Of a DNA stretch of 52,660 nucleotides, positions 16,941 through 52,660 are shown piece by piece. Made by a program: the position numbers and the translations under genes. This stretch comes from a virus (lineage: Duplodnaviria > Caudoviricetes), in IMG/VR virus record IMGVR_UViG_3300005537_000007, positions 1-52,660 of that record; one strand, written 5' to 3'. The notes beneath the pieces were generated by a model. The model made no database searches, was not told the origin of the DNA, and was given only the letters and a program-made list of their open reading frames with translations. Position 1 is the stretch's first letter. Each line of letters starts with the position of its first letter.

Positions 16941-17293
16941 ACACGCTATTACTCGCCGTAGATACTTGGGATTTTGTGCTGGACGCCAACCAAAATTGGG
17001 CGGTGGCCGCCGCTCCATACGCGCTCGCCCAGGACGTGGCCAGCGCCATCCGGACGTTTCTGGCCGAAGTCTGGTACGATGACACGCTAGGGATTGATTA
17101 TCTCGGCGAGATCCTAGGCCACACGCCGCCCGTTACGGTATTCCAGGCGCGCATGGTCGATGCGGCGAAGACGGTACCGGGGGTGGTCTCCGCGCAATGT
17201 GTTATTGAGAGTTTCAATCGCGACACACGCGAAGTGATCGGGCAGGTGCAATTCGTGGATTCGAACGGTAATACCGGAACGGTTTCGCTATGA
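16937..17293 (+). CDS. Baseplate wedge/sheath initiator (gp25-like)
   Basis: Motifs TWD, AQDVASAIRTF and WYDxxxGIxY. Confidence 0.75.
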   Translation: MNTLLLAVDTWDFVLDANQNWAVAAAPYALAQDVASAIRTFLAEVWYDDTLGIDYLGEILGHTPPVTVFQARMVDAAKTVPGVVSAQCVIESFNRDTREVIGQVQFVDSNGNTGTVSL

Positions 17294-20207: not shown

Positions 20208-21053
20208 ATGGCGTTCGAAAATCACCTACTGTTAGAAACTGGCGGGTTTCGACTTCTCGAAACCGGCGCTGGTAATCGGCTGCTGGAGAACTCTCCGGCC
20301 GGCACGGTTGTGCCTAATGTCGTAGGCGATCCGATCCCCGCCGCGTCCGCCGCCCTAACCGCCGTAGGGCTATTCGTAGGCACCATAACTGGCGCCGTGG
20401 ATACGTCCGTCCCCATCGGAACTGTGATTTCGCAAAATCCGGTGGGTGGCTCCGTGGTGGCGCCGGGATCGAGTGTCGATCTTGTCATCTCCGTGCCTGC
20501 TACCAATTTCGACGTGATGCTGACGGTAATCAGTCAGTATCAGAATAGCCCTGTGTTGCTGCAGCTCATAGAGAACATGGGCGTATATCTCAACCAGCAA
20601 GTTAACTACGCGATGTTTTACGCGTATGTGTGGAACGTATCCACGGCTGTGGACTTCGGGTTGGACATATGGGGCAAGATTGTCAACATCGGCCGTGCGT
20701 TGAACGTCAACGGCAGTCCGGTCATTCTCGGAAATGATGATTTCCGAACACTGATATTAGTCAAAGCGTTGTCAAACATCGTGGCTACAACGGCGCCTGC
20801 GATGAATCAACTGCTGACTAATCTGTTCGGCACACTTGGCCGGACATACGTCACCGACAGCGGTGGCATGGAAATGCACCTTGTTTTCGAGTACGTTATC
20901 ACGGACATACAGCGGGCCATCTTGACGCAATCCGGCGCACTGCCGCACCCGGCGGGCGTTCGCGTGAATATCGTCAGCTTCGATCCGGCACATACATTTG
21001 GATTTCATGGGTCCGGACTGCAGCCGTTCAATCAGGGCACGTTCTGGGCGTAA
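20208..21053 (+). CDS. Baseplate wedge protein (DUF2612 family) with N-terminal LLLETGG repeat and PASTA domain
   Basis: C-terminal TVISQYxNSP, WNVxTAxxFGLDIWGKIV, L.HPAGV and PFNQGTF. Residues 33-95 match the PASTA pattern VPNVVG...A...L...GL...GTVISQNP..G..V..G..V.LVIS. Confidence 0.8.
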   Translation: MAFENHLLLETGGFRLLETGAGNRLLENSPAGTVVPNVVGDPIPAASAALTAVGLFVGTITGAVDTSVPIGTVISQNPVGGSVVAPGSSVDLVISVPATNFDVMLTVISQYQNSPVLLQLIENMGVYLNQQVNYAMFYAYVWNVSTAVDFGLDIWGKIVNIGRALNVNGSPVILGNDDFRTLILVKALSNIVATTAPAMNQLLTNLFGTLGRTYVTDSGGMEMHLVFEYVITDIQRAILTQSGALPHPAGVRVNIVSFDPAHTFGFHGSGLQPFNQGTFWA

Positions 21054-21066
21054 TTGTGGAGTTAGC

Positions 21067-22293
21067 ATGCCTGTCACGACACCTACCAACTTAATTACCG
21101 AGCCGTTTGGCGCATCCGCCGTCGATATTACGCTACCGGTGCCCATCACCGACCCAGGTAGCGGACAGGCATCGTTTACGTTGGGATTCCCTCACGTCAA
21201 CAAGCTGCCGGTGAATACGGGCGGTATTCCGCCTTATCTGGAGGATATGAACGGTATCCTCAACATGGTGACGGCGTACGCTGCCGCGCTCGGAGCGGGA
21301 CAGATTTTCCCCTACTCATCCGCGCTCGCCACTGCCATCGGAGGTTTCAAGCAAGGCGCCATTTTGGCACAAGCCAGCGGCGCAGGGTTTTGGCTCAATT
21401 TGACCAATGGCAACACCTCCAACCCTGACACTGGCGGTGCCGGGTGGGTACCGTTATACACCTATGGCATTGCCACCGTCCCGGTAACAGGCGGTGTCGT
21501 AACGCTGACGACGGCGCAAGCGGCGTGTGAAACTATTATTTTTACTGGCACACTCACTACCGACTGCGCGGTGGTGGTGCCGCCGGTAGTGCGGCGCTGG
21601 ACGTTTGTGAATAACACCACGGCCGGTCTTTCATTCCAGATAACCATACAATCGGCACTAGGCCACGCCGCCGCCACACTGCAGCAACCGGATAGCATAA
21701 ACCCACTTTCGGTTTGCACAGGCGTACGTGGTGATGGCACTAATTGCTACAACGAATTCGCGCCGCTGTTTTCCCCGCAGTTTTATGGGTCACCTACTTG
21801 CGCTTTGGGGACTATAGGCGGCAACGCGTTCCAAGTCATAAATCAACAGTACTTGCGCGATGTTTTGTTATCGTCGCCTGCGTTGGGCGGAACTCCCACC
21901 GCCGCGACCGCGTCATTTGGCACCAACAACACGCAGATTGCGACTACCGCGTTTGTGCAAGCGGCCCTTGTGCCCAGCTCACACTTGGCGACAACAGGAC
22001 ATCGTATAAGCCCGGACGGTTACATAGAGCAATGGGGGCCGATAGCGGCCGGCGCAGGGATCAACCCCGTGGATATTGCCATAACGTTTGACATCCCATT
22101 CCCCCACGAATGTTTCCACGTGAGCGTTACTACTAACCGCAGCGTTGCGACAGCGGGTCAAGCAGGCAGTGGCAGTAACTTTGCGCTAGGGTACAGGGGT
22201 GCTGGGCCGACTTCGGGATGTACCGTCACGATTGACGATTCGCTCGGATCGGCTTCCGCATATGCGGGTACGTATTACGCCGTAGGATGGTAA
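21067..22293 (+). CDS. Tail fibre protein
   Basis: N-terminal ASFxxGFP...GGIPP..DMNGIL, tail-fibre repeat SPALxGTPTA...TQIATTAFVQAA, and C-terminal PDGYIEQWG module. Confidence 0.85.
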   Translation: MPVTTPTNLITEPFGASAVDITLPVPITDPGSGQASFTLGFPHVNKLPVNTGGIPPYLEDMNGILNMVTAYAAALGAGQIFPYSSALATAIGGFKQGAILAQASGAGFWLNLTNGNTSNPDTGGAGWVPLYTYGIATVPVTGGVVTLTTAQAACETIIFTGTLTTDCAVVVPPVVRRWTFVNNTTAGLSFQITIQSALGHAAATLQQPDSINPLSVCTGVRGDGTNCYNEFAPLFSPQFYGSPTCALGTIGGNAFQVINQQYLRDVLLSSPALGGTPTAATASFGTNNTQIATTAFVQAALVPSSHLATTGHRISPDGYIEQWGPIAAGAGINPVDIAITFDIPFPHECFHVSVTTNRSVATAGQAGSGSNFALGYRGAGPTSGCTVTIDDSLGSASAYAGTYYAVGW

Positions 22294-22300
22294 GGCTGAC

Positions 22301-22519
22301 ATGAGCGATATAGACGAGAAATCCGTTATGTTAGGCCAACATGAAGCGCGATTGGATAGCGTTGAGGCCACACTCAACGAAATCCGCGGTGATGTAAAGC
22401 GGCTCGTTGAGTACATGGACCGCGCCAAGGGTTCGTGGAAAACGTTGGTCGCTATCGGCGGTATCACCACGGCGGTAGTTGAAGGCGTTCACCAACTTGT
22501 CGGATGGTTGCACAAATGA
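22301..22519 (+). CDS. Putative holin/antiholin (coiled coil plus C-terminal TM)
   Basis: 72 aa with a coiled coil then a hydrophobic tail, ATGA-coupled to the endolysin gene. Confidence 0.55.
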   Translation: MSDIDEKSVMLGQHEARLDSVEATLNEIRGDVKRLVEYMDRAKGSWKTLVAIGGITTAVVEGVHQLVGWLHK

Positions 22520-23043
22520 CGCGAGACGAAGCTGTAGCGTTGATGATCCGCCTGGAGGGCGGCGAGGCGAACGTTAAAGGCGATCCGGGCGGGCACACCA
22601 AGTACGGTATCACGCAAGCCACGTTGGATTCGTACCGCAAAAACGCACCACTACTTGGGCTGCCCACCAACGTGGCGAATTTGACCACTACACAAGCGGC
22701 GGTTATTTACATCGATGTTGATTGGGATGCTATGCAGTGCGACGAACTGCCCGCACCACTCGCCGCGTTGATGCTCAATTCTGCGGTGAATCAAGGCGAG
22801 CCCACCGCCGTAGGGCTACTGCAAGAATGTCTGGGATTGCGTGTTGACCGTTTGATGGGGCCCGCTACGTTGGCTGAGGTCGCCACGTGGAAGTCTAAGT
22901 ACATGCCTGAACAGACTCTTGCGGAAGAGTTTGCCGCGCGCGTAGCAGTTCGTTACGCCTCGCTCAACCGCACCGAGTGGCAATTCGAGTTAGGTTGGAT
23001 GCGGCGGTTGTTCCGCATCTATACCCTCGCCATCTCCGGATAG
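22516..23043 (+). CDS. Endolysin, glycoside hydrolase family 108 with C-terminal peptidoglycan-binding motif
   Basis: Motifs EGG, DPGGxTKYGIT, AVNQG and FxxGWxRR. Confidence 0.9.
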   Translation: MTRDEAVALMIRLEGGEANVKGDPGGHTKYGITQATLDSYRKNAPLLGLPTNVANLTTTQAAVIYIDVDWDAMQCDELPAPLAALMLNSAVNQGEPTAVGLLQECLGLRVDRLMGPATLAEVATWKSKYMPEQTLAEEFAARVAVRYASLNRTEWQFELGWMRRLFRIYTLAISG

Positions 23044-23232
23044 TTGGTCAGCGCGTCGCTTTATGTATCGGCGGCACAATGCCAGTGCGTGAGGAACGGT
23101 CGGATTCTTGGTTCGGGTCGTGTCTATAACTGCTAACGTAACGGGATCGCGAACAAAGAAGTAGTGTTCAGTCCTGCCCAAATGTATTCGATGTTTTGTT
23201 GCGAATTGAGCGACAGTTTTTGGAATATTCAT
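22990..23232 (-). CDS. Hypothetical protein in an antisense cassette within the lysis module
   Basis: 80-aa ORF downstream of 23266..23439 and its promoter. Its 3' end overlaps the endolysin gene. Confidence 0.45.
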   Translation of the reverse strand: MNIPKTVAQFATKHRIHLGRTEHYFFVRDPVTLAVIDTTRTKNPTVPHALALCRRYIKRRADQLSGDGEGIDAEQPPHPT

Positions 23233-23265
23233 TTCCGTTGCACCGTAGATTGGTTGTACGGTTAA

Positions 23266-23439
23266 TTATCGATCCCTGGTATCTACCGGCGCATCTACCA
23301 CCATTTCTTTGACGTATGCTCGAAACCGTTGGATCTGCGATACAGCTTCCTCAGCCTTCTCGGAAGTTGAGCAAACTGCAGCGATCTTGTCAGTACCGGT
23401 TAGGCTGTTGACTTCTCGAAATACAAGATAGACCTTCAT
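23266..23439 (-). CDS. Small 57-aa protein (MKVYLVF...IAAVCSTxEKAEEA, DUF7336-like); first gene after an operator-containing promoter
   Basis: Read manually (below the ORF-track cutoff). AGGA RBS. Pattern is common in small phage proteins. Confidence 0.6.
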   Translation of the reverse strand: MKVYLVFREVNSLTGTDKIAAVCSTSEKAEEAVSQIQRFRAYVKEMVVDAPVDTRDR

Positions 23440-23469
23440 TCTGGGTTCCTGGTTGTCCGATGTGCAAGC

Positions 23470-23513
23470 ATCTTACTGACCGAGCCGTCAGTTTGCAAGT
23501 GATGCGCGTCACA
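23470..23513 (-). promoter_or_regulatory. Leftward sigma70 promoter TTGCAA-17-TAAGAT with TGAC-N6-GTCA operator in the spacer and a CRP-like AGTGA-N6-TCACA box abutting -35
   Basis: -35 at 23493-23498, -10 at 23470-23475, palindrome at 23477-23490. Near-identical to 45280-45323. Confidence 0.75.
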
Positions 23514-23553
23514 GTTTATACTTCGGTCGATTTTCCATAATCTGGGCGAAACC

Positions 23554-24162
23554 ATGAAGCACCTTGGCACGTACCTTGCGCATTACATGGCGCTCCTGGC
23601 AGGACTCGCCGCCGGTGTCGCATCCTTCAAGCCAGCCCTATTCGAAACCTTCTTGCCGTTCCTCGGCCCCCACGCGGCCGGGATCATCGGTGGTGCCGCC
23701 GCCCTCGTGGCCGCGCTCCATGCGCTCGGGATCGACCCGCCAAAGGCCGCCGCCGCGCTCCTCGTGGGCGTACTGTCCGCCGGTACGTTACATGGTTGCG
23801 CCACGCCGCCCGCTGGCGCATCGCTCGCCCAGGCCGCGCCCTTCGTGGAAGCTGCCGTCGATGTCGCCGTCGCTACGGCCGAATCTAAGGGCCTACAGCC
23901 GGCGCAAATCAATGCCATCGCCAAACTTGCCTTGGCCGCCGACGAGGGCTCCACGGCGAGCCTGAGCGCGATTGCAGTTGTCGTCAACGCGGAGCTGTCG
24001 AAGCTCGCGCTACCGCCGGGTGATGTAGCCGCCGCGCTCATCCTCGAGGATGCGTTGCGCGTGGCCATCACGGCGCGACTTGCCAACGATCCCAGTGCCG
24101 CGCAGGTGCAGGCCGCCGCCGCGCTCGTGATTCAGGATGTCATCAATGCTACCGGAGGTTAA
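23554..24162 (+). CDS. Membrane protein with internal lipobox (holin- or spanin-like)
   Basis: Hydrophobic segments, then LSAGTLHG-C, then an Ala-rich helical region. Located in the lysis region. Confidence 0.5.
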   Translation: MKHLGTYLAHYMALLAGLAAGVASFKPALFETFLPFLGPHAAGIIGGAAALVAALHALGIDPPKAAAALLVGVLSAGTLHGCATPPAGASLAQAAPFVEAAVDVAVATAESKGLQPAQINAIAKLALAADEGSTASLSAIAVVVNAELSKLALPPGDVAAALILEDALRVAITARLANDPSAAQVQAAAALVIQDVINATGG

Positions 24163-24163
24163 T

Positions 24164-24610
24164 GTGCGTAAATTTTACACTGGCGTTGTACTCGCGCTGC
24201 TGAGCGCTCTGACGGTTACCGCCGTTCAGGCGCAGACTGTCAACGAATCGGCTGCGGTGGCATGGACTGCTCCGACCAATGACGCCAACGGCATTCCGCT
24301 GGCGGGATCGCCCAATGCGGTCACGTCGTACAATGTCTATGCAAGCACCACGCCGCTGACGGCGGTACCGACCACGGCGCCGTTGGCTGTCGTCACCGCG
24401 CCGGCCACCACCGTAACGGGCTCCGTGTCCGCCTCCGTGGGAGCTACGTTGTACGTGTACGTGACGGCCTGTAACGCCACGGGGTGCTCGGCATTGTCAA
24501 CACCAGCTACAAAGCTCGTGGCAATCCCAGGGGCGCCGCCGGGTATCCCCACCAGCGTCACGCTGACCGTCACCGTCGTCCCTGTTGCGTCCAGCGCCAC
24601 GAAACCGTAA
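24164..24610 (+). CDS. Secreted fibronectin type III domain protein
   Basis: GTG start with GGAGG RBS. Signal peptide MRKFYTGVVLALLSALTVTAVQA, then FN3 motifs WTAP, SYNVY and YVYVTACNATGCS. Confidence 0.7.
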   Translation: MRKFYTGVVLALLSALTVTAVQAQTVNESAAVAWTAPTNDANGIPLAGSPNAVTSYNVYASTTPLTAVPTTAPLAVVTAPATTVTGSVSASVGATLYVYVTACNATGCSALSTPATKLVAIPGAPPGIPTSVTLTVTVVPVASSATKP

Positions 24611-43567: not shown

Positions 43568-44485
43568 ATGAACCAAATTGCGACAGTTCCCGCGGGCACC
43601 CCCGTGGAGGTAGTTGAAAAGTCGCGCGCGATGGTGCGCGTGGAAGCGGCGCGCAAAGCGTGCAACGCGGCCGAAGCTTCGTTCGCTGAACACTGGGCCG
43701 CAACATCCAACAAGGCTAAAGCGTACCGATTGGCCATGGGCTACGACGGTACAAAGAAAGGCGCGAAGGCGTGGGGGCCAGCGTTTCAGTATCAACGTGC
43801 GATTGAGTATTCCTACAAGCCAGCAGTGCAAGAGTATTTCCAGGCGTTGAAGGATCTTGCGTGCGAGAACGCGGTGATCAACATTCAACGCATCCTGGAA
43901 CATGACAAGGCAATTGTGCAGGCGGCGGAAACATCCAACGATCTATCACGCCACGTGTGGCTCAATTGCCGCTACTGCCACGGTGCCAACAACGCGTATC
44001 AGTGGATTGATGATGCGGAGTATCGGCAAGCCATGGCGAAATGGTTTGAACAGGTCGGCGCGTTGAAGGGGGATCAACCCGCGCCCGCGCAACCGGACGA
44101 CTCGGGCGGCTATGGTTTCGAACAGTGGGCCAAGCCCAACGCCGATTGCCGCCGCTGCCTGGGGCTCGGCGAGCAGCGCACGCTTATCGCGGACACGACC
44201 GAGCTGGAGGGACCGGCCGCTGCGCTCTACAAGGGCGTGAAAGCCAAAGCGGACGGCTCAATCGAGTTGATTACGCACGATGTGGACAAAGCCAAGGAGC
44301 GACTGCTGAAGGCCGCAGGCGCGTATGGTGACTCGGCTAGCGACGTGGCCCGCGGCGCGGCGGCGGGGGCTGCTGCGGGGGCGGCGGCTGCTGGGGCGGC
44401 TCAGGTAGCAGCCCGTACAGCGACTGTCGCAGTGACGCTTTCGGATGAGGAAGCGGCGCGGATGTATTTGGAGCTGGCGGGTTAG
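43568..44485 (+). CDS. terS: Terminase small subunit (Zn-finger type)
   Basis: Motifs AYRxAxG, CRYCHG...YQW, PNxDCxxCxGxG, DT..L...AxxLYxGVK and C-terminal EAxRxY. Upstream of terL. Confidence 0.75.
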   Translation: MNQIATVPAGTPVEVVEKSRAMVRVEAARKACNAAEASFAEHWAATSNKAKAYRLAMGYDGTKKGAKAWGPAFQYQRAIEYSYKPAVQEYFQALKDLACENAVINIQRILEHDKAIVQAAETSNDLSRHVWLNCRYCHGANNAYQWIDDAEYRQAMAKWFEQVGALKGDQPAPAQPDDSGGYGFEQWAKPNADCRRCLGLGEQRTLIADTTELEGPAAALYKGVKAKADGSIELITHDVDKAKERLLKAAGAYGDSASDVARGAAAGAAAGAAAAGAAQVAARTATVAVTLSDEEAARMYLELAG

Positions 44486-45342: not shown

Positions 45343-47049
45343 ATGGTAAATTCCAACGCGGAGCTGAGTGACCGGGGGCTCGTGGCTAACTCAGCAGCTG
45401 CATGCGAGCCCCAATTCGACTGGCGTCACCCGCACTATGCGCCTATTTGGGCCAAGCGCATGCGCATGCTGGCCAAGCTGCGCGATCCCAAGACCGGCCC
45501 GCAATACTTCCAAGCGATGATGCAGTTTTATCGTGCGGGCAACATCGACCGCATGATCGAGGACTGGGGCGTGACGGTCGATCCGCGCAATGCGGGCACT
45601 GGCAAGCCCATTATGATGCCGTTCATCTTGTTTCCACGGCAGCGTGAGTTTACCCAATGGCTGTGGGGTAAGTTCAAACAACAAGAAGATGGCCTCGAGG
45701 TCAAATCGCGTGATTGCGGCGCATCGTGGCTCGCCATGGCGTTTTCCATGTGCATGTGTCGCCTATTCAACGATGTTAGCTTCGGCTTTGGTTCGCGTAA
45801 AGAGGATCTTGTTGACCGTTCGGGCGATCCCGATTGCTTGTTCTGGAAAGGCCGCACATTCGTTAAATATCTGCCGCGTGAGATACGTGGCCCATGGGAC
45901 TGGAAGCGTAACAATGCACACAAACGTACATGGTTTGATGACACAAACAGTTCTGCCACCGGTGAGGCAGGGGATGACATTGGCCGAGGCGGCCGTAAAA
46001 CTATGTATTTTGTCGATGAATTTGCGTTCGTCGAACGACCCAAGCTCGTGGATGCAGCACTGTCAGCCAACACGCGATGTCGTATTGAGATGTCTTCAGT
46101 TAATGGGCTCAACAACACGTTCGCCGAGCGCGCCCGTGGCGGAAAGATAGATCGATTCGACTTCGACTATCACGACGATCCGCGCAAGTGTTACGTTGAT
46201 GCGAATGGCATCAAGGTGCCCTACCCTGATTTCGCCAAGTATCTCGCCTCGCTCGACCCCGTGGTTAAGGCCGCGGAGTATGACCGCGACTTCAAGGCAT
46301 CTATCGAAGGCGTGCTTATCCCACAGGAATGGGTAGAGGCGGCCATCGGTGCGGCGGCGAAGCTGGGTATTAAAGTTAGCGGCGTGCGTCGGGTCGCGTG
46401 GGATATTGCTGATGCCGGCAAGGATAAAAATACCAACATATTCCGCCATGGTATCCAGGTTGAGGATGCCGAAGAGTGGCAAGGTCAGGAAGCGCGCATG
46501 ATGGATTCTGTGCGGCGCACTGTTGAGTTTGTTGATAAGCATCAAGCGAGTGAGTTGTACTACGATAAGGATGGCATGGGCGCGCCGGCATCGTCCATGC
46601 TAGCCATGGAACTGGAAGAACGCCGAAAGCGCAACGCGAAGTATCGATTGAGCGTTACGGGTTTCCGTGGCAGCGGTGCGGTAATAGATCCGGAGCGCAA
46701 AACTCCGGGCACGGACCGCAAGAATGAGGATTACCTCGAGAATCAAAAGGCGCAAAGCTGGATGGCCCTCCGTTGGCGGTTTTGGATTACATATAACGCT
46801 TTGACCGTTCCCGGCTATACGTATGATCCGAATGAAATTATCTCGTTAAATCCACAGATGAAGTTGCTCACCAAGCTCACGGGTGAATTGTCGCAACCCA
46901 CCCGCACGTGGAGCAAGACGGGCAAGCTCATGATCGATAAGACGCCCGACGACGTTGCCTCTCCCAACCTTGCGGATGGCGTGATGATGGAATTTGCATA
47001 CCAGCGGCCCGCTATGGTATTCAGTGACGAACTGTTGGGGGCACTATGA
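45343..47049 (+). CDS. terL: Terminase large subunit
   Basis: Motifs PFILFPRQ, Walker A-like KSRDxGASW, GRGGR, Walker B YFVDE, SSVNG, nuclease WDIADxGxD, YDxDGxG and SPNLAD. Confidence 0.92.
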   Translation: MVNSNAELSDRGLVANSAAACEPQFDWRHPHYAPIWAKRMRMLAKLRDPKTGPQYFQAMMQFYRAGNIDRMIEDWGVTVDPRNAGTGKPIMMPFILFPRQREFTQWLWGKFKQQEDGLEVKSRDCGASWLAMAFSMCMCRLFNDVSFGFGSRKEDLVDRSGDPDCLFWKGRTFVKYLPREIRGPWDWKRNNAHKRTWFDDTNSSATGEAGDDIGRGGRKTMYFVDEFAFVERPKLVDAALSANTRCRIEMSSVNGLNNTFAERARGGKIDRFDFDYHDDPRKCYVDANGIKVPYPDFAKYLASLDPVVKAAEYDRDFKASIEGVLIPQEWVEAAIGAAAKLGIKVSGVRRVAWDIADAGKDKNTNIFRHGIQVEDAEEWQGQEARMMDSVRRTVEFVDKHQASELYYDKDGMGAPASSMLAMELEERRKRNAKYRLSVTGFRGSGAVIDPERKTPGTDRKNEDYLENQKAQSWMALRWRFWITYNALTVPGYTYDPNEIISLNPQMKLLTKLTGELSQPTRTWSKTGKLMIDKTPDDVASPNLADGVMMEFAYQRPAMVFSDELLGAL

Positions 47050-47071
47050 GAGATGATTGGGAGGGATTGTA

Positions 47072-47221
47072 ATGAAACCGCACATATGGTTTGCTGGCGG
47101 CCGTTGGTTTTGCGGTTTCTCCGGAACAGTAGGGCTAGGCGTGTCGCCCGAGAGTGCTTACCGCGATTATTGGCTCGTCGCAGGTCTGCGAAAATACGTG
47201 TTGCCGTACGCCACGCGATGA
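47072..47221 (+). CDS. Small phage protein (MKPHIW...W.C...GxGxSPxxAYxD)
   Basis: Read manually. GGAGG RBS, ATGA-coupled. Confidence 0.55.
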   Translation: MKPHIWFAGGRWFCGFSGTVGLGVSPESAYRDYWLVAGLRKYVLPYATR

Positions 47222-47472
47222 GTCGGCGCGGCACAGCAGTGGGCGGCATTGATGAGAGTGGCCCGATGTCGTTTCTAACTCGTGCCCAAGACCGAGCGTT
47301 GCGGGCCAAAGCGTGGCGTTATGTGCGGCGGATCAACCCTCAGGTGGCGCGCCGCGTGTGGCGTAAGCACAGGACGGCCCAACAGTGGAAACGCTTGGGA
47401 ATCGTAGGCGTGGCTGGCCATGACATTGGCCGCGGCGGGCGCACTACCGTGTATTACGTGGACGGTATATGA
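47218..47472 (+). CDS. Basic 84-aa protein ending in a TerL-like segment
   Basis: C-terminus GVAGHDIGRGGRTTVYYVD mirrors TerL GEAGDDIGRGGRKTMYFVD. Confidence 0.5.
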   Translation: MSRRGTAVGGIDESGPMSFLTRAQDRALRAKAWRYVRRINPQVARRVWRKHRTAQQWKRLGIVGVAGHDIGRGGRTTVYYVDGI

Positions 47473-47750
47473 TCTGCGCGCGCTGTCACTACGTGAACAA
47501 CAACGGGCCGCCCGTGCGGCGCATCTGTATCGCCTGCAAGAAACCGTTCGAGCCGGGGCTCATCCGCGCCCCGTGGAAGTTCGAGCCGTCCACAGTACAT
47601 GACCCGCACCGGAATCGCGGCGGCCTAGGCCCTCAGTTTCCTGTGAGCCGGTTTCACCCGATTGATTTACTCAAACCGTACGTAGAACAGGTTATCGAAT
47701 CCGCCATTAAAGCCGGACTCGTCAAGCGCGGCAGTTCCCACGGGAGCTAA
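47469..47750 (+). CDS. Zn-ribbon protein
   Basis: CxxC...CxxC at the N-terminus. ATGA-coupled. Confidence 0.5.
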   Translation: MICARCHYVNNNGPPVRRICIACKKPFEPGLIRAPWKFEPSTVHDPHRNRGGLGPQFPVSRFHPIDLLKPYVEQVIESAIKAGLVKRGSSHGS

Positions 47751-47950
47751 GGTGTGCTAGGGTGCGCGGGAGCCGAACGGTCGGCGCACAGGTGCAACAA
47801 TGGCCCGCCGACAACCCAGCCTGATACATCGGGGCTATCTCTACGCCCAAAAGAGGCAGCCGTCTGCATTTCCGGCAGGCGTTGAGCCATCCACCGTTCG
47901 CATGACTTATGCCCGCGCGTGGCGCGATGGCTACCTTGCGGCTCAACGCG

Positions 47951-48811
47951 ATGCCAAAAACAAGCCGTAGGCCCAAACAGCTCCGCACCATCGCCGCGAT
48001 TCATCCGAACCGTGGCGTGCAGGCGTGGTATTGGAACGAGTTGGAACGATTGATCCGCTCGGCCCACGGCGACCTCTTGCGTCAGTTGGAGCGGCCGGCG
48101 CAGATAGCGTTAGATGGCAAGCCTCGCACACCATCCGGGTTGGTGCGTGAAGATGGTTCAGAAGTTGTATACGACGCATCTTCACCAATCACGCGGTTGG
48201 ATAAAGTACTCAAACGATGGGGTGAACGATGGGCGGGGAAATTCGACAAAGCGGCCAACAAGCTGGCGAAGCAATTTGCGGCGAAATCGTTCACCTCGAC
48301 AAACACGGCATTTCGAGCTGCCCTTTCAAGTGCAGGCTTTACGGTCCGGTTCAAAACGACGAAAGCCTCGCTGGAGTCGTTTCGTGCAACTGTCGCGGAG
48401 AATGTTGGGCTAATCAAGTCAATACAACAGCAGTTCCACACCAAAGTCCAGGGTGACGTATGGCGCGCTGTAACACGTGGCTCAGACTTGTCCACTCTGA
48501 GCAAGAGCTTGCGCGAGAGCTACGATATTACGACGAAACGCGCGGCCTTGATCGCGCGGGACCAGAACGCGAAAGCCAAGGCGACGATCGAGAACACACG
48601 AAGGGCGGAGCTTGGAATTACACAGGCCATTTGGCAACATTCGAGCGCGGGTAAAAAGAAGCGTCGTACCCACGTTGCGATGAACAACAAAGTGTTTGAT
48701 ATTCGTAAAGGGATGTGGGACGAGGATGAACAAGAATGGGTGTTGCCGGGCCAGTTGATTAACTGCCTCTGCACATCGCGCGCCATCATACCGGGGTTGG
48801 AAGAATCATGA
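47951..48811 (+). CDS. Minor head protein (Mu gpF/SPP1 gp7-like)
   Basis: Motifs ENVxLIKSI, RAxLIARDQxxK, WxHS, RxxH and PGxxINCxC. Confidence 0.88.
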   Translation: MPKTSRRPKQLRTIAAIHPNRGVQAWYWNELERLIRSAHGDLLRQLERPAQIALDGKPRTPSGLVREDGSEVVYDASSPITRLDKVLKRWGERWAGKFDKAANKLAKQFAAKSFTSTNTAFRAALSSAGFTVRFKTTKASLESFRATVAENVGLIKSIQQQFHTKVQGDVWRAVTRGSDLSTLSKSLRESYDITTKRAALIARDQNAKAKATIENTRRAELGITQAIWQHSSAGKKKRRTHVAMNNKVFDIRKGMWDEDEQEWVLPGQLINCLCTSRAIIPGLEES

Positions 48812-49008
48812 TAAAGGGTTTTAAAACGGTCACCGCTACGTCGCCGCACGGCGCATCAGAAAGATTCATCGGCGAAGCGTTGTATATAAGACGCGGCTAT
48901 CCAGGGCATATAGAGATCTTAGAATTAAGCATTGATCAGCCGACCGGTGCGCCGCTTGTTGGCGTAGTACCCGACTCGTGGGCGTTGCGTTTTGAGTTGA
49001 ACCAATAG
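48808..49008 (+). CDS. Hypothetical protein
   Basis: ATGA-coupled to the gpF-like gene. Confidence 0.45.
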   Translation: MIKGFKTVTATSPHGASERFIGEALYIRRGYPGHIEILELSIDQPTGAPLVGVVPDSWALRFELNQ

Positions 49009-49023
49009 TTATATAGGTGTTGC

Positions 49024-49389
49024 ATGTTTCGTAAACTCTCCTTCGCTCTCTCCCTCACCCTCGCCTTCCTGTTTTGCACTCTGCCCACCTGGGCCGCAAC
49101 GCTCTACGTGGAGGAATTCTCGCAGCCTGTGCCCGTGTTGTATCAGGCGGCCATCACGCCCAGCCTTGCATCACAGACCGTGGCTATTGGCGGCAGCTCG
49201 GCGCAATCGGCTGCGTTCAAAAACGACACCGTGTTGATCCGCGTTCACGCGGACGCAATCTGTAGCGTGCAGATTGGGCTGAACCCCACTGCGGCAACTA
49301 CGAATATGCGCATGACGGCGGGCCAGACAGAGTATTTTCTGGTACCCAAAGGAGCCGCGTTTAAGATCGCGGTCATAAGCAACACATGA
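49024..49389 (+). CDS. Signal-peptide-bearing small beta protein (possible head-spike or fibre base)
   Basis: Signal MFRKLSFALSLTLAFLFCTLPTWA, then SAQSAAF...IRVHAD..C....G.NPTA.....M.AGQTEYF. Confidence 0.6.
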   Translation: MFRKLSFALSLTLAFLFCTLPTWAATLYVEEFSQPVPVLYQAAITPSLASQTVAIGGSSAQSAAFKNDTVLIRVHADAICSVQIGLNPTAATTNMRMTAGQTEYFLVPKGAAFKIAVISNT

Positions 49390-49550
49390 TCCTTATCGCT
49401 TGCGCCTATTTCCTCAACGGTGGCGTGGGTATTCTCACGCAACCCAATACGGGCGCAGGCTCCGGGCCGCCACCCGTTACTCACTATCTCGTGACCGGGA
49501 CCGGCACGCCACTCGCCACAGGATCGGGCGCAATTCTGGTGTATCAATGA
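49386..49550 (+). CDS. 54-aa peptide with C-terminal LxTGxGxxL repeat
   Basis: Read manually, ATGA-coupled on both sides. Ends YLVTGTGTPLATGSGAILVYQ. Confidence 0.55.
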   Translation: MILIACAYFLNGGVGILTQPNTGAGSGPPPVTHYLVTGTGTPLATGSGAILVYQ

Positions 49551-50803
49551 AATCGCTCTACCGCTCACTCCCCTTGTGGCTGCCTTCAGCTATCGTTTTG
49601 TTGCTGTTCGCATCTGGCGCATTCGGCCAGAACGTAACAATCAACGCGCTTCCCACGGGCGCGGCGATTACCGGCACCGAATCCGTGCCGATGTACCAAT
49701 CAGGCTCATGTTCCGCAACGAGCGGTACGTGCCAAACGACGCCCGCCGCGTTGCTCACCTACGTGAACGCCAACGCCGCACTGAACGCGTCAGCGCTCGT
49801 TAACGGCACGTTGCTCGTGGGGCGCATGCCTGCTCTTACGGGCGATGTCACGACTAGCGCGGGCGCCGTGGCGACCACCATTGCGGCGAGCGCGGTAACC
49901 AACGCGAAGTTGGCCAACATGGCCGCCAGCAGTATCAAATGCAACTCTACGACCGGTAGCGCCGTAACCGTAGATTGCAATCCCCTTCAGGCAGCCAACC
50001 TCATGGCAGCGCTGCTCGCCGTGGACGTTGCAAGCAACGCCAACACCACTCTGAGCGGGTTACAAACTGTCGATGGCATACCAGGATTCGCCGGAGAAGT
50101 AGTCCTCCTGTGGGGACAAACCACCGCATCGCAGAATGGCTTCTACGTGATGGCTTCAGGCGCGTGGTCCCGAGCGGTCAATTTCCCTGGCGGTTACACT
50201 ATTCCCCAGTTTTGCGATCTTGCGGTGTTTGTTCTAAAAGGCACTAGCACTGGCGGATTGCACCTGTACTTAGACACCTCTTCTGCTGCCATCACCGTTG
50301 GAACGACTTCCCAAACTTGGCGTTTTCGAGCGCTCCCGGTCGCGACTCCAACGGTGTCAGGCACCACCAAGACCACCTCCACCACGCCGGGGCTGAATAC
50401 AGTCCCCTCCATGACCTCACCCCCGAGCGCCAGCGGCGGTGCGGCCCAAGACTGCGTATCGTTCAGCGATACCGCCGGTAGCATCGCGGATTCGGGCGAT
50501 CTGGCGGGTGAGCTTGGCCCCTGCATTGTGTCGGACGCCAACGGTCATGCGCTTCTGACGGGCGTTGCCTTGCCGGCTTCGAATGTTGGGACTCTGGATG
50601 GGAACGACCAACACGGTCACATCACCGGGCTCACTGCCGCGACCTCCGTGACTATCACCTTTGGAGCGCCCTGGACCTACGCGCCCTCCTGTGGCGCCAG
50701 CACCAGTGCGAACACCGCCGTGGGAATGTCGGCATCGTCTACGGCGGCTGTGACTTTGAATTTTGTGGCGCTTACTGGGTCGCTTCACTATTGGTGTTTT
50801 TAA
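49547..50803 (+). CDS. Signal-peptide-bearing virion-fibre-like protein (418 aa)
   Basis: Signal MKSLYRSLPLWLPSAIVLLLFASGAFG, TINALP anchor, LTGDVT...IAASAVTNAKLA repeat, LSGLQTVDG...QTTASQNGFY...GAWSRA fibre domain, and several Cys pairs. Confidence 0.7.
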   Translation: MKSLYRSLPLWLPSAIVLLLFASGAFGQNVTINALPTGAAITGTESVPMYQSGSCSATSGTCQTTPAALLTYVNANAALNASALVNGTLLVGRMPALTGDVTTSAGAVATTIAASAVTNAKLANMAASSIKCNSTTGSAVTVDCNPLQAANLMAALLAVDVASNANTTLSGLQTVDGIPGFAGEVVLLWGQTTASQNGFYVMASGAWSRAVNFPGGYTIPQFCDLAVFVLKGTSTGGLHLYLDTSSAAITVGTTSQTWRFRALPVATPTVSGTTKTTSTTPGLNTVPSMTSPPSASGGAAQDCVSFSDTAGSIADSGDLAGELGPCIVSDANGHALLTGVALPASNVGTLDGNDQHGHITGLTAATSVTITFGAPWTYAPSCGASTSANTAVGMSASSTAAVTLNFVALTGSLHYWCF

Positions 50804-50805
50804 GG

Positions 50806-51858
50806 ATGAATTTACGCGCACTGTTGTGTTGGGCGGTTCTAGTTGGAACCGCCCACGCAGGCCCTAACGTACTCAACGCGACCACGCATGCCGATACGTT
50901 TATAGCTCCTGCTATCAACGCCGTGCTGGGGTCGGGCCACGTCGATACCGATATATTCGTAGATTATTACGGCGCGGGCACGGTAGCGAATATGATCGCG
51001 GCCAGCTCCAACACGGGCGCGAGTTACACGTCTGTTGCCAGCGGTCTAACGGTCAACCATGCGCCATATAAAGTCATAAACGCCTCCTTGTGTTGCTTTG
51101 CTACGGCCACGGATCAAGCGAACTACCCTTCTTTGGTGAGTGGCGACATCGCCTACGCCCAGCCGATCGGCACATTGCCGTTGCCCGCCGGCAGCGCGCC
51201 TCCTACGGCCATGATTACGGCATCTTCACCCAACTCCGGCGATGGCCCTGGAACCAACGGCTCGGGCCTGGAATTCGGGCTGTCAGCGAGCTACCTGGGA
51301 CTCGACACCAGCGCCGATTCCTGGGATTCAGCCGCGATCGCGGGATTCGTGGCGGCGCTCGAGTTCAACCACCCCACGTGGAATTTCTTTGACGCCAAAG
51401 CGGCTTTGCGCGTCACCGCAGGCCAATGGGCCACCGGGTACTCGAGTAGCAATTTCGGCTTCGGGTTTGTCAATTGGAGCGCCGCCAACGCCGCCTCGAC
51501 CCTGTACCTGCAAGGCCCTGGCATGACCGTGCGCAACCAAGTAGACGCTGCTGTCATCACGTTGTACCCGTTTCGCCAGACGCGCCGCACCCGCGAAGTG
51601 ATCTATTCGGTGCCGGCCGCCTATACGTGGCCGATCAAAAACGAGTACACCGCATCGGATCTTACCGCATCGGGCGGCACGCTCTTGTACACCTCCAACG
51701 GTACAGACGTAGAACCAACCTACACATTTATGCCCGTTGCATCGGGCACGGTGACGTTCGTGGCTTTCACCACCGACGGATCGGGAAACTATTCGCGTGT
51801 TGAGCCGTATAGCGAAATGTCGGCCGCGCTGTTGGTGAGCGCATCATGCCATCCGTAA
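50806..51858 (+). CDS. Secreted subtilase-fold-like protein (divergent or degenerate)
   Basis: Signal MNLRALLCWAVLVGTAHA. VINASL and DSW.SAAIAGFVAAL...HPTW....KAALRxTA...GFGFVN resemble S8 peptidase elements. Confidence 0.5.
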   Translation: MNLRALLCWAVLVGTAHAGPNVLNATTHADTFIAPAINAVLGSGHVDTDIFVDYYGAGTVANMIAASSNTGASYTSVASGLTVNHAPYKVINASLCCFATATDQANYPSLVSGDIAYAQPIGTLPLPAGSAPPTAMITASSPNSGDGPGTNGSGLEFGLSASYLGLDTSADSWDSAAIAGFVAALEFNHPTWNFFDAKAALRVTAGQWATGYSSSNFGFGFVNWSAANAASTLYLQGPGMTVRNQVDAAVITLYPFRQTRRTREVIYSVPAAYTWPIKNEYTASDLTASGGTLLYTSNGTDVEPTYTFMPVASGTVTFVAFTTDGSGNYSRVEPYSEMSAALLVSASCHP

Positions 51859-52118
51859 AACGCCGCAGTAAATACGCGCAAGTGTGGTCCGGCATTTGGG
51901 AGGACCTGCCGCGCGCGTGGGATCTCGCTTGCTGCGATTGCGGGTTGATCCACGGCATTGAAGTACGCGTTCACTACGGTGAGCCGCAGATACGCATGAC
52001 TGTGAACAAACGAGCTACCGCTTCGTACCGCCGCCGCAATACCCTACCTTTTAAACCAAGGAGTAAGCCCCGTGCCAAAGGCAAAAACCCTAAGCGACCT
52101 ACTCGTAAAACACGATGA
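51846..52118 (+). CDS. Small basic phage protein with CCDCGLxH motif
   Basis: Pattern ACCDCGLIH...RAT..YRR recurs in phages. Confidence 0.6.
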   Translation: MPSVKRRSKYAQVWSGIWEDLPRAWDLACCDCGLIHGIEVRVHYGEPQIRMTVNKRATASYRRRNTLPFKPRSKPRAKGKNPKRPTRKTR

Positions 52119-52371
52119 GTCCGTCATCATCCCCAAGCGCATTCGCGAACATCTCGCCGCTATGTTGCGAGTTGGCCCTGAAGAGCACGATTACGAACAG
52201 GATTTCCTAACTGCCGCGAAAATAGCCAACAACAAAATTGGCAAGTATCGCGAGCAGTTCAAGGCGCACATCGTGTGGACGCGTGACAAAAACCCCAAAC
52301 GCGTGTGGTTCGCCGACCCCAAGGTAGCGGCGAAATTCCGCGCCCGTATCGGAGCATCTGACGATGTCTAA
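52072..52371 (+). CDS. Hypothetical protein
   Basis: AAGGAG RBS and GTG start. Its N-terminus resembles that of the next gene. Confidence 0.6.
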   Translation: MPKAKTLSDLLVKHDESVIIPKRIREHLAAMLRVGPEEHDYEQDFLTAAKIANNKIGKYREQFKAHIVWTRDKNPKRVWFADPKVAAKFRARIGASDDV

Positions 52372-52660
52372 GCCCAAAACACTAGACGATCTCGCTGCCA
52401 AACACGACCCGGTGACCATCATCGCCGGGTTGCGCGCTGAGTTGGCGGAGGCCCGTAGTCGTGCTGATTCCGCAGCCATTTTGCGTGAGTGGATCGGCAC
52501 GGCGAAATTGGAGCTATCCGAGCTACAGTTGCCAAAATGGGTTGTGTCGCCCAAGACGGCTGGGGCGCCGGGTGTCCCCACGCTGCAGCTTAGCGACTTT
52601 CATTGGGGCGAGCGAGTTGACAAACGCCAAATGGGTGGGATGAATGAGTTCAATCTCACC
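52364..52660 (+). CDS. Metallophosphoesterase, 5' part (continues at 1..886)
   Basis: ATG at 52364 after GGAG. MSKPKTLDDL...LSDFHWGE is in frame with ORF 71..886. Confidence 0.8.
   Translation, partial: MSKPKTLDDLAAKHDPVTIIAGLRAELAEARSRADSAAILREWIGTAKLELSELQLPKWVVSPKTAGAPGVPTLQLSDFHWGERVDKRQMGGMNEFNLT

What the first reader, a model, noticed from the sequence alone, without database searches (positions are those of the whole stretch)
49024..51858. Operon of virion-like proteins carrying Sec signal peptides and Cys pairs: possible periplasmic assembly route for virion appendages
Seen: three of four tightly packed genes after the gpF-like gene begin with classical signal peptides (…PTWA|A, …GAFG|Q, …TAHA|G). 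The 418-aa product is otherwise built from typical virion-fibre parts (INALP anchor, LTGDVT/AVTNAKLA repeats, LSGLQTVDG…QNGFY domain) and has locally paired cysteines (CSATSGTC, CNSTTGSAVTVDC). Established: tailed-phage virions assemble in the reducing cytoplasm and structural proteins normally lack signal peptides. Inference: these proteins are exported, fold with disulfides in the periplasm, and either dock on virions at lysis or modify the infected cell surface. I know of no characterised example, but I cannot search the literature.
Basis: partly seen in the sequence, partly recalled or inferred. Interest (0 to 1): 0.8.

Follow-up and report, generated by a model that had tools for sequence, protein, structure and literature searches.

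The report
Exported fibre-and-protease cassette in phage
A probably virulent soil myovirus carries, inside its packaging and head operon, a small gene cassette whose fibre-like protein, small partner protein and subtilisin-like protease all bear conserved secretion signals, so these virion-type parts are apparently sent out of the cytoplasm, for a purpose still unknown.

Summary
Genes A (49024-49389), B (49547-50803) and C (50806-51858) start with classical Sec signal peptides. Relatives keep these signals while their sequence drifts. SP-less relatives of A start with Met exactly at the predicted cleavage site.

B is a mosaic of virion-fibre domains. Its repeat loops carry Cys pairs that were seen only in signal-bearing relatives.

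One correction: C is not virion-like. It is a subtilisin-fold serine protease (AF2 pLDDT 94.6; Foldseek hits to S8 proteases). It is always adjacent to B in phages and sometimes fused to a B domain. Stand-alone signal-bearing copies lie in two Steroidobacteraceae MAG contigs.

A, the 54-aa peptide S and a fibre form a module found in many phages without signals. One clade converted the module to exported forms, and the cassette moves between head, packaging and tail gene blocks.

Export is well supported by comparison but not by experiment. Docking on virions after lysis is untested.

My preferred reading is a periplasm-folded, disulfide-stapled fibre that targets a protease to envelope or surface proteins late in infection and after lysis. 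I found no characterised precedent. Interest is moderate to high.

The parts
49024..49389 (+). Gene A, 121 aa. Signal peptide is residues 1-24 (49024-49095), followed by a 97-aa beta-sandwich of unknown function.
   Evidence: ORF and AGGTG 4 nt upstream of the ATG. AF2 model pLDDT 93.6 shows an N-terminal helix then seven strands. 433 homologues and 4059 cluster representatives at E<=1e-3. SP-less forms start M-ATLY at the predicted cleavage site. No PDB fold match at E<=1e-3. 13 BFVD matches, none carrying a functional name.
49386..49550 (+). Gene S, 54 aa. Gly/Pro/Thr-rich peptide with a short hydrophobic N-terminus and no canonical signal peptide in this genome. Its start and stop overlap A and B (ATGA junctions).
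   Evidence: Sequence. Homologous small ORFs follow A in L005 (53 aa), L001 (71 aa, SP), L051 (69 aa, SP) and L014 (78 aa, SP), and SP-less in L026 (52 aa). My detector finds no SP here.
49547..50803 (+). Gene B, 418 aa. Signal peptide is residues 1-27 (49547-49627). Then come the INALP-type N-terminal motif with a C-x6-C loop, a DUF5907-like repeat with a C-x11-C loop, an LSGLQTVDG...GAWSRA domain, and a Cys-containing C-terminal region ending WCF.
   Evidence: PHROG hits 2647, 24595, 11518 and others. Pfam DUF5907 is below cut-off. Homologues P0002-P0006 are 45-53% identical in the alignment, with leaders. GenBank phages match at domain level only. Cys positions. Cys-pair versus SP association.
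50806..51858 (+). Gene C, 350 aa. Signal peptide is residues 1-18 (50806-50859). Then a compact subtilisin-fold domain with candidate D53/H85/N143/S172, and a C-terminal beta-sandwich (about residues 239-342).
   Evidence: AF2 pLDDT 94.6, pTM 0.91. Foldseek PDB gives 82 matches at E<=1e-3, all of those listed at that E-value subtilases or engineered subtilisins apart from two chains of one glycopeptidase. Profile against PDB aligns the invariant S172 with the subtilase catalytic Ser. Conservation: D53 63/66, H85 57/66, N143 59/66, S172 66/66. PF00082 matches weakly in 15 of 66 members and not in the window protein.
47909..48811 (+). Mu F-like head morphogenesis gene immediately upstream. Context only, not part of the exported set.
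   Evidence: PF04233 1.3e-12; phrog_324 2.8e-68.
48808..49008 (+). 66-aa ORF between Mu F and A. No signal peptide and no family hit. Context only.

Best explanation
The cassette is a Sec-exported version of a widespread phage module joined to a protease. The module is a small beta-sandwich (A), a short repeat peptide (S) and a fibre (B). The added gene is a subtilisin-fold serine protease (C).

Proposed mechanism, with the status of each step:
1. The genes are transcribed with the packaging and head genes late in infection. Inferred from tight packing and the lack of promoter or terminator signals.
2. A, B and C are translocated by the host Sec system, and signal peptidase I cleaves them at the A-x-A sites. 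Shown only by comparative sequence evidence. S is uncertain in this genome.
3. B folds in the oxidising periplasm into a fibre stapled by short-range disulfides. A and S, its conserved gene neighbours, had to be exported with it. Inferred.
4. C works physically with B, so that the fibre gives the protease its target. Inferred from invariable adjacency in phages and from natural fusions.
5. The products act outside the cytoplasm, on envelope or surface proteins of the infected cell and, once lysis frees them, on debris and neighbouring cells. This could destroy or mask receptors, or clear surface layers. They are not built into virions in the cytoplasm. This is my commitment, not shown.
For: Signals are real and selected. 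Three complete n/h/c signal peptides are present. At the alignment-defined junction, -1 is Ala or Gly in 43 of 43 A rows and 52 of 64 C rows, with positive n-regions. The leader sequence varies while the mature N-terminus is conserved. SP-less A proteins begin exactly at the junction.

The signal was gained rarely and then kept. On a tree of the mature part, 42 of 43 SP forms fall in one clade (SH-aLRT 96). The minimum is 3 changes, against a mean of 33.8 in shuffles, and 0 of 500 shuffles were as low. Only 12 of the best 150 family representatives carry a signal.

The module was converted as a whole.
- Raw script count over 41 distinct loci: A with signal and next large ORF with signal, 3; A with signal and next without, 3; A without signal and next with, 1; neither, 34.
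- Reading the starts by eye, B in the window and in L028 and A in L014 do carry signals. Adding L075 and L044, which the script missed, the count is 7, 1, 1 and 34 of 43.
- S relatives likewise exist with a signal and without one.

Oxidising compartment. The C...C form of B's repeat loop occurs in 3 proteins, all with signals. It occurs in 0 of the 30 scored SP-less, among the 38 of 120 proteins that have the repeat. The Cys pairs recur in B-like proteins of other cassettes.

C is a protease coupled to B. B-C adjacency holds in the window and in all 4 viral loci found with C. P0142 and P0150 fuse a B domain to C with no leader between them.

C is not a virion part by origin. Two Steroidobacteraceae MAG loci carry signal-bearing C alone among non-phage genes.

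The cassette is mobile. It lies between Mu F and the portal gene here, between TerS and TerL in L005 and L014, between portal and Mu F in L028 and L051, after the tail fibres in L001, and inside a siphovirus tail block in L003 and L004.

The phage already has ordinary signal-less tail fibres at 20208-22293.
Against: No experiment and no SignalP run stands behind the export claim; my detector is a crude rule set.

The SP-less A-S-fibre module lies in structural blocks, and in one case precedes a gene matching a 'tail protein' family (L043, phrog_5939, 2e-80). The exported version could therefore still be a virion part.

The cassette shows no promoter or terminator of its own. It sits in a late structural operon of a phage with no integrase among the roughly 50 larger ORFs searched. 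That is unlike classical exported morons.

The Asp and His of C's triad were not aligned to subtilisin. I placed them by spacing and conservation only, and H85 is replaced in 9 of 66 members.

No target is known. S in this genome lacks a canonical signal.

Exceptions exist. L009 has A with a signal but signal-less downstream genes. L044 has the reverse.
Confidence: 0.5

Rival explanations
1. Periplasmic assembly route for virion appendages. A, S and B are exported and fold with disulfides. C matures them. At lysis the finished fibres dock on heads or tails that were built in the cytoplasm.
For: B consists of domains that GenBank phages annotate as head decoration, virion protein or tail fibre. 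It keeps an N-terminal motif, directly after the signal, that recurs at the N-termini of the B-like proteins in the other cassettes.

SP-less A-S-fibre modules lie next to portal or capsid genes. In L043 the module precedes a 'tail protein' family member.

The cassette is co-transcribed with structural genes as far as can be seen. All partners gained signals together.
Against: No virion data exist.

The cassette changes position among head, packaging and tail blocks and among myovirus- and siphovirus-type gene contexts. That is unusual for a part that must fit a fixed docking site.

No other protein of this genome carries the same N-terminal motif.

C also exists alone among non-phage genes in two MAG contigs and is fused to a B domain in some relatives. 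That looks more like an effector than a maturation factor.

I found no precedent in five literature searches.
Confidence: 0.2
2. Egress accessory. The exported protease, held by the fibre, cuts envelope tethers, an S-layer or matrix proteins from the periplasmic or outer side. This would make lysis complete and let progeny escape.
For: Expression is probably late. The protease is kept away from cytoplasmic virion assembly by export. Phage late proteins that use host Sec are an established kind, namely Sec-dependent and SAR endolysins and spanins. The SAR endolysin and spanin points appear in the phiCbK paper passages read.
Against: The cassette is about 26 kb from the endolysin gene (22504-23043, phrog_315). 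It is never next to lysis genes in the loci examined, except possibly L075, where three short hydrophobic-leader ORFs precede A. A receptor-binding-type fibre is not needed for a lysis function.
Confidence: 0.15
3. Uncleaved signal-anchors. The N-termini tether A, B and C to the inner membrane facing the periplasm, for example to block DNA entry of superinfecting phages.
For: Hydrophobic N-termini are present. Exported or membrane-bound exclusion proteins are a known kind; one example is T5 Llp (PMC9586334, passages read).
Against: The -3/-1 rule is obeyed in 43 of 43 A rows and most C rows. h-regions are short, with median uncharged runs of 13-15 residues, shorter than typical membrane anchors. 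SP-less relatives begin exactly at the predicted cleavage site.
Confidence: 0.08
4. Artefact. The hydrophobic N-termini come from wrong start codons, and the true proteins are cytoplasmic.
For: Alternative in-frame GTG or TTG codons exist, for example a GTG at V29 of A. ORF-calling in GC-rich DNA is error-prone.
Against: The conserved mature N-termini (ATLY..EF, QNVTI.ALP, PNVLN..THAD) lie immediately after the leaders. A downstream start would truncate them. The leaders are conserved in dozens of independent contigs.
Confidence: 0.03

Closest known systems
T5 Llp and the Cor lipoproteins (superinfection-exclusion / 'lytic conversion' proteins)
   Same: These are phage-encoded proteins sent to the periplasm. 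Llp is encoded next to the receptor-binding protein gene, contains an intramolecular disulfide and acts on the host receptor (PMC9586334; abstract, results and discussion passages read). T5 being virulent is my recall.
   Different: Llp is a small lipoprotein of about 60 residues with a lipobox Cys. A, B and C have no lipobox. They are a beta-sandwich, a 391-aa fibre mosaic and a protease. No receptor is known here.
Lambda Lom and Bor: exported 'moron' proteins inside late operons (recalled, not looked up)
   Same: They are signal-bearing envelope proteins encoded amid tail or late genes, and are not virion parts.
   Different: Morons have their own promoter and terminator and are expressed from prophages. 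Here no such signals exceed chance, no integrase was found, and the proteins derive from virion-type modules.
Subtilases (peptidase family S8), secreted pre-enzymes of bacteria
   Same: The fold matches. The catalytic Ser helix and the following H-P-x-W motif align. There is an N-terminal signal peptide. Members P0155 and P0169 weakly match mycosin TIGR03921 around the Ser.
   Different: The catalytic domain is much shorter, about 215 residues. The window protein has no Pfam PF00082 hit. I saw no I9-type propeptide. The Asp and His are not confirmed by alignment. The gene is embedded in phage structural operons beside a fibre gene.
C-terminal intramolecular chaperone-protease (S74) of tail spikes and fibres such as K1F endosialidase and T5 L-shaped fibre (recalled)
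   Same: A serine protease is genetically coupled to a phage fibre. Natural B-C fusions exist.
   Different: The fold is different (subtilisin, not S74). The protease is usually a separate gene, carries its own signal peptide, and has stand-alone homologues in MAG contigs.
Cell-surface display of Mtd-like variable proteins of diversity-generating retroelements, such as Legionella LdtA (recalled)
   Same: A phage receptor-binding-type protein carries an export signal and works on the bacterial envelope rather than on a virion. Some distant B relatives carry Pfam Mtd_N (PF18454; P0012, P0040, P0075).
   Different: I saw no retroelement and no lipobox or Tat motif in the cassette, and it sits in a probably virulent phage.

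Membership tests
Sec-type (signal peptidase I) signal peptide | Positively charged n-region | tested here: met
   MFRK, MKSLYR and MNLR in the window. Net charge of the first 8 residues is >=1 in 43 of 43 SP-form A rows and 59 of 64 C rows.
Sec-type (signal peptidase I) signal peptide | Uncharged hydrophobic h-region of about 7-15 residues or more | tested here: met
   h-regions are 16, 19 and 12 residues by my detector. The median longest uncharged run is 15 in A and 13 in C.
Sec-type (signal peptidase I) signal peptide | Small neutral residues at -3 and -1 before the mature protein | tested here: met
   TWA|A, AFG|Q and AHA|G in the window. -1 is Ala 41 and Gly 2 of 43 in A; Ala 45 and Gly 7 of 64 in C.
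Sec-type (signal peptidase I) signal peptide | Actual translocation and cleavage | not testable with these tools
   This needs fractionation, PhoA fusions or N-terminal proteomics. SignalP was not on hand.
Peptidase S8 (subtilase) | Subtilisin alpha/beta fold | tested here: met
   The AF2 model (pLDDT 94.6) gives 82 PDB matches at E<=1e-3. They are led by Vpr, TPP II, Tk-SP and subtilisin BPN', with TM up to 0.51 on the target.
Peptidase S8 (subtilase) | Catalytic Ser at the start of the central helix | tested here: met
   Invariant S172 (66 of 66) aligns with the Ser of G-T-S-M-A in three plant subtilases.
Peptidase S8 (subtilase) | Asp and His of the D-H-S triad, and the oxyanion Asn | tested here: inconclusive
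   D53 is kept in 63 of 66, H85 in 57 of 66 and N143 in 59 of 66. The D-to-H spacing of 32 equals that recalled for subtilisin.
Peptidase S8 (subtilase) | Pfam PF00082 at its gathering score | tested here: not met
   The window protein has no hit at E<=1. 15 of 66 relatives give weak hits, best 5.2e-05. NCBIfam gives none for the window protein.
Phage tail-fibre / DUF5907 repeat proteins | Pfam PF19264 at its gathering score | tested here: not met
   18.6 bits against a cut-off of 27, residues 96-141.
Phage tail-fibre / DUF5907 repeat proteins | Domain-level homology to proteins annotated as virion fibre or decoration | tested here: met
   Eight PHROG families, best 2e-17. 59 GenBank phage records match about 26% of the query.
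Phage tail-fibre / DUF5907 repeat proteins | Presence in purified virions | not testable with these tools
   No cultured phage with the cassette was found. tblastn of A and C against GenBank phages gave no match.
Moron (autonomous accessory gene in a late operon) | Own promoter and terminator | tested here: not met
   Promoter-like sites number 5 against 5.4 expected, with none between 45353 and 52660 on the + strand. Terminator-like sites number 13 against 9.9 expected, and the only + strand site in the cassette is a weak one inside B's leader. This is a consensus scan only.
Llp/Cor-type exclusion lipoprotein | Lipobox with Cys at +1 | tested here: not met
   The leaders of A, B and C end in A|A, G|Q and A|G. 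The Cys in A's leader (FLFC) does not fit a lipobox.
Lysis cassette (holin, endolysin, spanin) | Adjacency to the endolysin and membrane-protein genes | tested here: not met
   The endolysin is at 22504-23043 (phrog_315), with membrane-protein ORFs beside it. The cassette lies about 26 kb away.
PEP-CTERM sorted proteins (for relatives of C) | C-terminal P-x-P, hydrophobic helix and basic cluster, recognised by a curated model | tested here: inconclusive
   6 of 82 C relatives fit a pattern I wrote. NCBIfam reported no PEP-CTERM model for P0155 or P0169. The window protein has no such tail.

The most novel reading that the evidence does not exclude
A clade of tailed phages has moved a whole tail-fibre-type module (fibre, small beta-sandwich partner, repeat peptide) into the Sec pathway and paired it with a subtilisin-like protease. 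Disulfide-stapled fibres are then built in the periplasm. One possibility is that they are added to finished virions only at lysis, which would be a second, extracytoplasmic assembly line for a tailed phage. The other is that they are released as a free fibre-guided protease that works for the phage outside the cell.
Probability: 0.2. Interest if true: 0.9.

Novelty: new variant of a known kind. Interest (0 to 1): 0.62.

Why it matters
Tailed-phage particles are assembled in the cytoplasm. The exported phage proteins known so far are lysis proteins, small exclusion lipoproteins or prophage morons. Here a module made of virion-type parts has been converted, gene by gene, into secreted proteins and linked to a protease, in a probably virulent phage.

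If the products act on receptors or surface layers, this is a new way for phages to condition the cell surface and protect progeny. If they dock on virions, it breaks the rule of cytoplasmic assembly.

The data also give a first handle on family A. It is a very large, uncharacterised phage family (4059 cluster representatives), and the exported clade gives it a testable handle: with which fibre, and in which compartment, it works.

Tried and rejected
- Complex prediction of mature A with mature B gave no verdict: score 0.00 in two runs and controls not folded. This says nothing either way about binding.
- blastn of 47000-52660 against GenBank phages gave one short Mu F-region hit. tblastn of A and of C against the same collection gave no match. 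I found no cultured phage with the cassette.
- A's model has no PDB neighbour at E<=1e-3. Its 13 BFVD neighbours carry no functional name. The ESM Atlas gave only unnamed viral clusters for A and lead-level tail-fibre neighbours for B.
- Pfam, PHROGs, NCBIfam and PADLOC gave nothing for A, S or C of the window.
- A search of the whole genome for a second protein with B's N-terminal motif found none, so that test of a shared docking site was uninformative.
- My first two-strand greedy gene caller picked wrong-strand ORFs in this GC-rich DNA, so I replaced it. The alternative-start signal scan over-calls, for example 49-57-aa 'sp' fragments of A. Counts taken from it were therefore checked by eye, as stated.
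- One PHROG batch failed on a bad coordinate. I repeated it without that item.
- Five literature searches turned up no report of signal-bearing tail-fibre modules or phage-encoded secreted subtilases in structural operons. From them I read only passages of PMC3556154 (lysis genes), PMC9144972 (spanin signal) and PMC9586334 (Llp). All other papers were seen as listings only, and supplements were not available.
- I considered and rejected a spanin or holin role (wrong place, no lipobox), Tat export (no twin arginine in the leaders) and lipoprotein export.


Full report
What the window is

The held genome equals the window, and its first and last 100 bases are identical. It is therefore a closed contig of about 52.56 kb.

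PHROG searches on about 50 of the larger ORFs give the following map:
- TerS 43568-44485
- TerL 45343-47049
- Mu F-like head morphogenesis 47909-48811
- the cassette
- an exonuclease that runs across the contig ends
- portal 1619-3280
- prohead protease 3280-4137
- major head protein 6157-7194
- tail sheath 10183-11721
- tape measure 12775-14340
- baseplate genes 15361-18507
- tail fibres 20208-22293
- endolysin 22504-23043
- a replication block with DNA polymerase, gp2.5-like SSB, exonuclease, helicase, methyltransferase and primase

None of the ORFs searched matched an integrase family. This looks like a virulent myovirus. Small ORFs were not searched.

The observation

After Mu F and a 66-aa ORF come four genes with overlapping or nearly abutting ends:
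- A, 49024-49389, 121 aa
- S, 49386-49550, 54 aa
- B, 49547-50803, 418 aa from the ATG
- C, 50806-51858, 350 aa from the ATG. The longest ORF starts at TTG 50791, five codons upstream, and also keeps the leader.

A, B and C begin with a basic n-region, an uncharged stretch of 12-19 residues and A/G at -1. My rule-based detector flags 5 of 72 crude ORFs of this genome at their longest start, plus B and one further ORF at their proper starts. The run of three is therefore not a base-rate effect. SignalP was not available.

Conservation of the signals

C has 82 homologues of very uniform length. Their N-termini differ freely in sequence but keep the same form, and they then converge on (A/G)PNVLN..THAD.
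- 72 of 82 pass my detector.
- Of the 10 that fail, by eye: 3 look like signals the rule misses, 2 are truncated starts, 1 is a fusion, 1 is a fragment and 3 seem to lack a leader.

A has 433 homologues. Among the 120 listed, 51 have a leader and 69 do not. The script gave 48 and 67, and I assigned the other 5 by eye.

The SP-less forms begin M-A-T-L-Y, exactly at the residue that follows the predicted cleavage site of the leader-bearing forms. This natural comparison marks the boundary of the signal.

At that junction, -1 is Ala in 41 and Gly in 2 of 43 rows. -3 is A, T, C, V, S, I or G in all 43. The n-region is positive in all 43.

B's five close homologues (45-53% identity in the alignment) all begin with leaders. 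So do B-like genes in six other cassettes.

A downstream start cannot explain any of this, because the conserved mature N-termini follow the leaders directly.

History of the signal in family A

I built a tree from the mature part only: 106 rows, 43 with a leader.
- 42 leader-bearing proteins and 1 without fall in one clade (SH-aLRT 96).
- The label needs at least 3 changes, against a mean of 33.8 in shuffles, and 0 of 500 shuffles were as low.
- The alignment is short and many forks are unresolved. The number of gains is not fixed, but it is small.

A profile search of 1.84 billion cluster representatives found 4059 family members at E<=1e-3 and 1885 at E<=1e-10. Of the best 150, 15 have an N-terminal extension, and 12 of those are signal peptides by eye.

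The exported form is thus a derived minority that has been kept through much divergence.

What the proteins are

A. It folds with high confidence (pLDDT 93.6) as a leader helix followed by a seven-stranded sandwich. It has no PDB neighbour at E<=1e-3. Its BFVD neighbours are phage proteins of about 90-130 residues with no functional name. Nearly invariant residues include R73, H75, D77 and C80. I cannot assign a function.

B. It is a mosaic of four parts:
- an N-terminal I-x-A-L-P...G-x-E-x-x-P...Q-x-G motif;
- a DUF5907-like repeat, below the Pfam cut-off;
- a domain shared with proteins annotated head decoration, virion protein or tail fibre in 59 GenBank phage records;
- a Cys-containing C-terminal part shared only with its close relatives.

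C. This is the surprise. The model (pLDDT 94.6, pTM 0.91) matches subtilases, with 82 PDB matches at E<=1e-3. A family profile aligns the invariant S172 and the following helix, down to an H-P-x-W motif, with the catalytic Ser region of subtilisin-like proteases.
- D53, H85 and N143 are conserved in 63, 57 and 59 of 66 members.
- They have the order and, for D to H, the spacing that I recall for subtilisin. No alignment covered them and I could not inspect coordinates, so the full triad is an inference.
- The window protein does not reach any Pfam or NCBIfam model.
- A C-terminal beta-sandwich follows the catalytic domain.

Signs of an oxidising compartment

Mature B has 9 Cys. Two are in a C-x6-C loop inside the N-terminal motif, and two are in a C-x11-C loop of the repeat.

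Of the 120 listed relatives of B, 38 have a recognisable repeat.
- The loop reads K-C-N...D-C in 3 of them, and all 3 have leaders.
- It reads K-G-N...D-L or similar in the 30 scored as SP-less.
- The detector flagged 5 further proteins as leader-bearing without the Cys pair. By eye, 3 of these are false calls and 2 are real leaders.

The sample is small and the three are not known to be independent. Even so, the direction is what export predicts. The same short-range Cys pairs recur in B-like proteins of other cassettes.

The module and its conversion

In IMG/VR loci found with family A (80 kept of 169), SP-less A lies in the following contexts:
- just after the major head protein gene (L019, phrog_9953);
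- just after the portal or adaptor gene (L039);
- or between TerL and portal.

SP-less A is often followed by a short Gly/Met-rich peptide and then a large protein. In L043 that large protein matches a 'tail protein' family at 2e-80. Seven of the other large neighbours tried had no PHROG match, and two matched only unknown-function families weakly.

The window's S belongs to this peptide family. Relatives in L001, L051 and L014 have a cleavable-looking leader joined to the Gly/Met-rich start. L026 has the same peptide without a leader. The window and L005 have only a short hydrophobic start.

Leaders on A and on the next large gene go together.
- Raw script counts over 41 distinct loci: both with leader 3; A only 3; next gene only 1; neither 34.
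- I corrected three mis-scored starts by eye and added two loci the script missed.
- Corrected counts: 7, 1, 1 and 34 of 43.

A whole module, not a single gene, was moved into the export pathway.

The link between B and C

C is directly downstream of a leader-bearing B-like gene in the window and in all four viral loci found with the C profile. Two database proteins (P0142, P0150) join B's middle domain to the mature start of C with no leader between them.

In contrast, the two loci found in bacterial MAG contigs, both Steroidobacteraceae, carry a leader-bearing C alone. None of their other ORFs matches this phage, and several carry leaders of their own. Six of 82 relatives have C-terminal tails that resemble PEP-CTERM sorting signals by a pattern I wrote. 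NCBIfam did not confirm this.

C therefore looks like a bacterial-type secreted protease recruited beside a fibre.

Mobility and expression

The cassette is found in different places:
- between Mu F and portal (the window);
- between TerS and TerL (L005, L014);
- between portal and Mu F (L028, L051);
- after the tail fibres of a related myovirus whose baseplate protein is 71% identical (L001);
- inside a tail block that has a tape-measure-sized gene downstream (L003, L004).

In the window, promoter-like and terminator-like sites do not exceed chance. No promoter-like site precedes the cassette on its strand. I take the cassette to be co-transcribed with the packaging and head genes, on weak evidence.

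Interpretation

Export of A, B and C is well supported by comparison. I put it near 0.9, although nothing here shows it directly.

What the exported products do is open. I favour a periplasm-folded fibre that carries or guides a protease and acts on envelope or surface proteins, of the infected cell and, after lysis, of debris and neighbours (0.5). My reasons:
- C is an enzyme of bacterial type.
- C is fused to B in some relatives.
- The cassette moves among unrelated structural contexts.
- The phage has ordinary signal-less tail fibres.

B keeps a recurrent N-terminal motif directly after the signal, the SP-less module lies in structural blocks, and the genes sit in a late operon.

An egress role (0.15), uncleaved anchors (0.08) and start-codon artefacts (0.03) are the remaining readings.

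The closest characterised case I could read about is T5 Llp. It is a periplasmic, disulfide-containing lipoprotein encoded next to the receptor-binding protein gene, and it inactivates the receptor (PMC9586334, passages). It shares the logic but none of the parts.

Limits

- There was no SignalP run, no model coordinates, no cultured relative, no expression or virion data, and no access to supplements.
- The complex prediction for A with B returned no verdict.
- Five literature searches found no precedent. This covers only the open-access library searched.

Noticed in passing
window 1-100 and 52561-52660: There is an exact 100-base direct repeat at the two contig ends. An exonuclease-like gene (phrog_284) runs across the junction (52364-52660 continues at 2-886). 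The contig is therefore a closed genome of about 52.56 kb.
   Followed up: yes
window 24137-24610 (+): A further signal-bearing ORF of 157 aa (…TVTAVQA|QTVNE) lies just after the lysis region. L014 has a leader-bearing 142-aa ORF inside its cassette, but whether the two are related was not tested. The window ORF has no PHROG or NCBIfam hit.
   Followed up: partly
window 22301-24162 (+): This is the likely lysis block. It holds a 72-aa ORF with a C-terminal hydrophobic stretch, the endolysin (phrog_315), and a 202-aa ORF with several hydrophobic segments and an L-H-G-C motif that could be a lipobox. Spanins were not identified.
   Followed up: no
family of gene A (P0203-P0470; loci L005-L084): This is a very large uncharacterised phage family: 4059 cluster representatives at E<=1e-3. 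Members are about 100 aa with a nearly invariant R-x-H-x-D-x-x-C motif. The gene is usually next to TerL, portal or major head genes, and members found beside different kinds of phage structural genes are still about 50-60% identical.
   Followed up: partly
P0142, P0150 (relatives of C): These proteins fuse the LSGLQTVDG-type domain of B to the subtilisin-like domain of C with no signal between them. P0467 is a 401-aa protein with a leader, an A domain and a long extra C-terminal part.
   Followed up: partly
P0154, P0155, P0157, P0158, P0165, P0169 (relatives of C): Their C-terminal tails (P-x-P, hydrophobic stretch, basic cluster) resemble PEP-CTERM sorting signals. NCBIfam gave no such hit for the two tested.
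   Followed up: partly
window 45343-48811 and 1619-3280: The gene order is unusual. TerL and Mu F are separated from the portal gene by the cassette, two small ORFs, an exonuclease gene and a 172-aa ORF. Relatives L028 and L051 have TerL-portal-cassette-Mu F instead.
   Followed up: no
L085, L086 (Steroidobacteraceae MAG contigs): Stand-alone, leader-bearing homologues of C lie among ORFs that do not match this phage, several of which carry leaders of their own. This hints at the host group and at a bacterial origin of C.
   Followed up: partly
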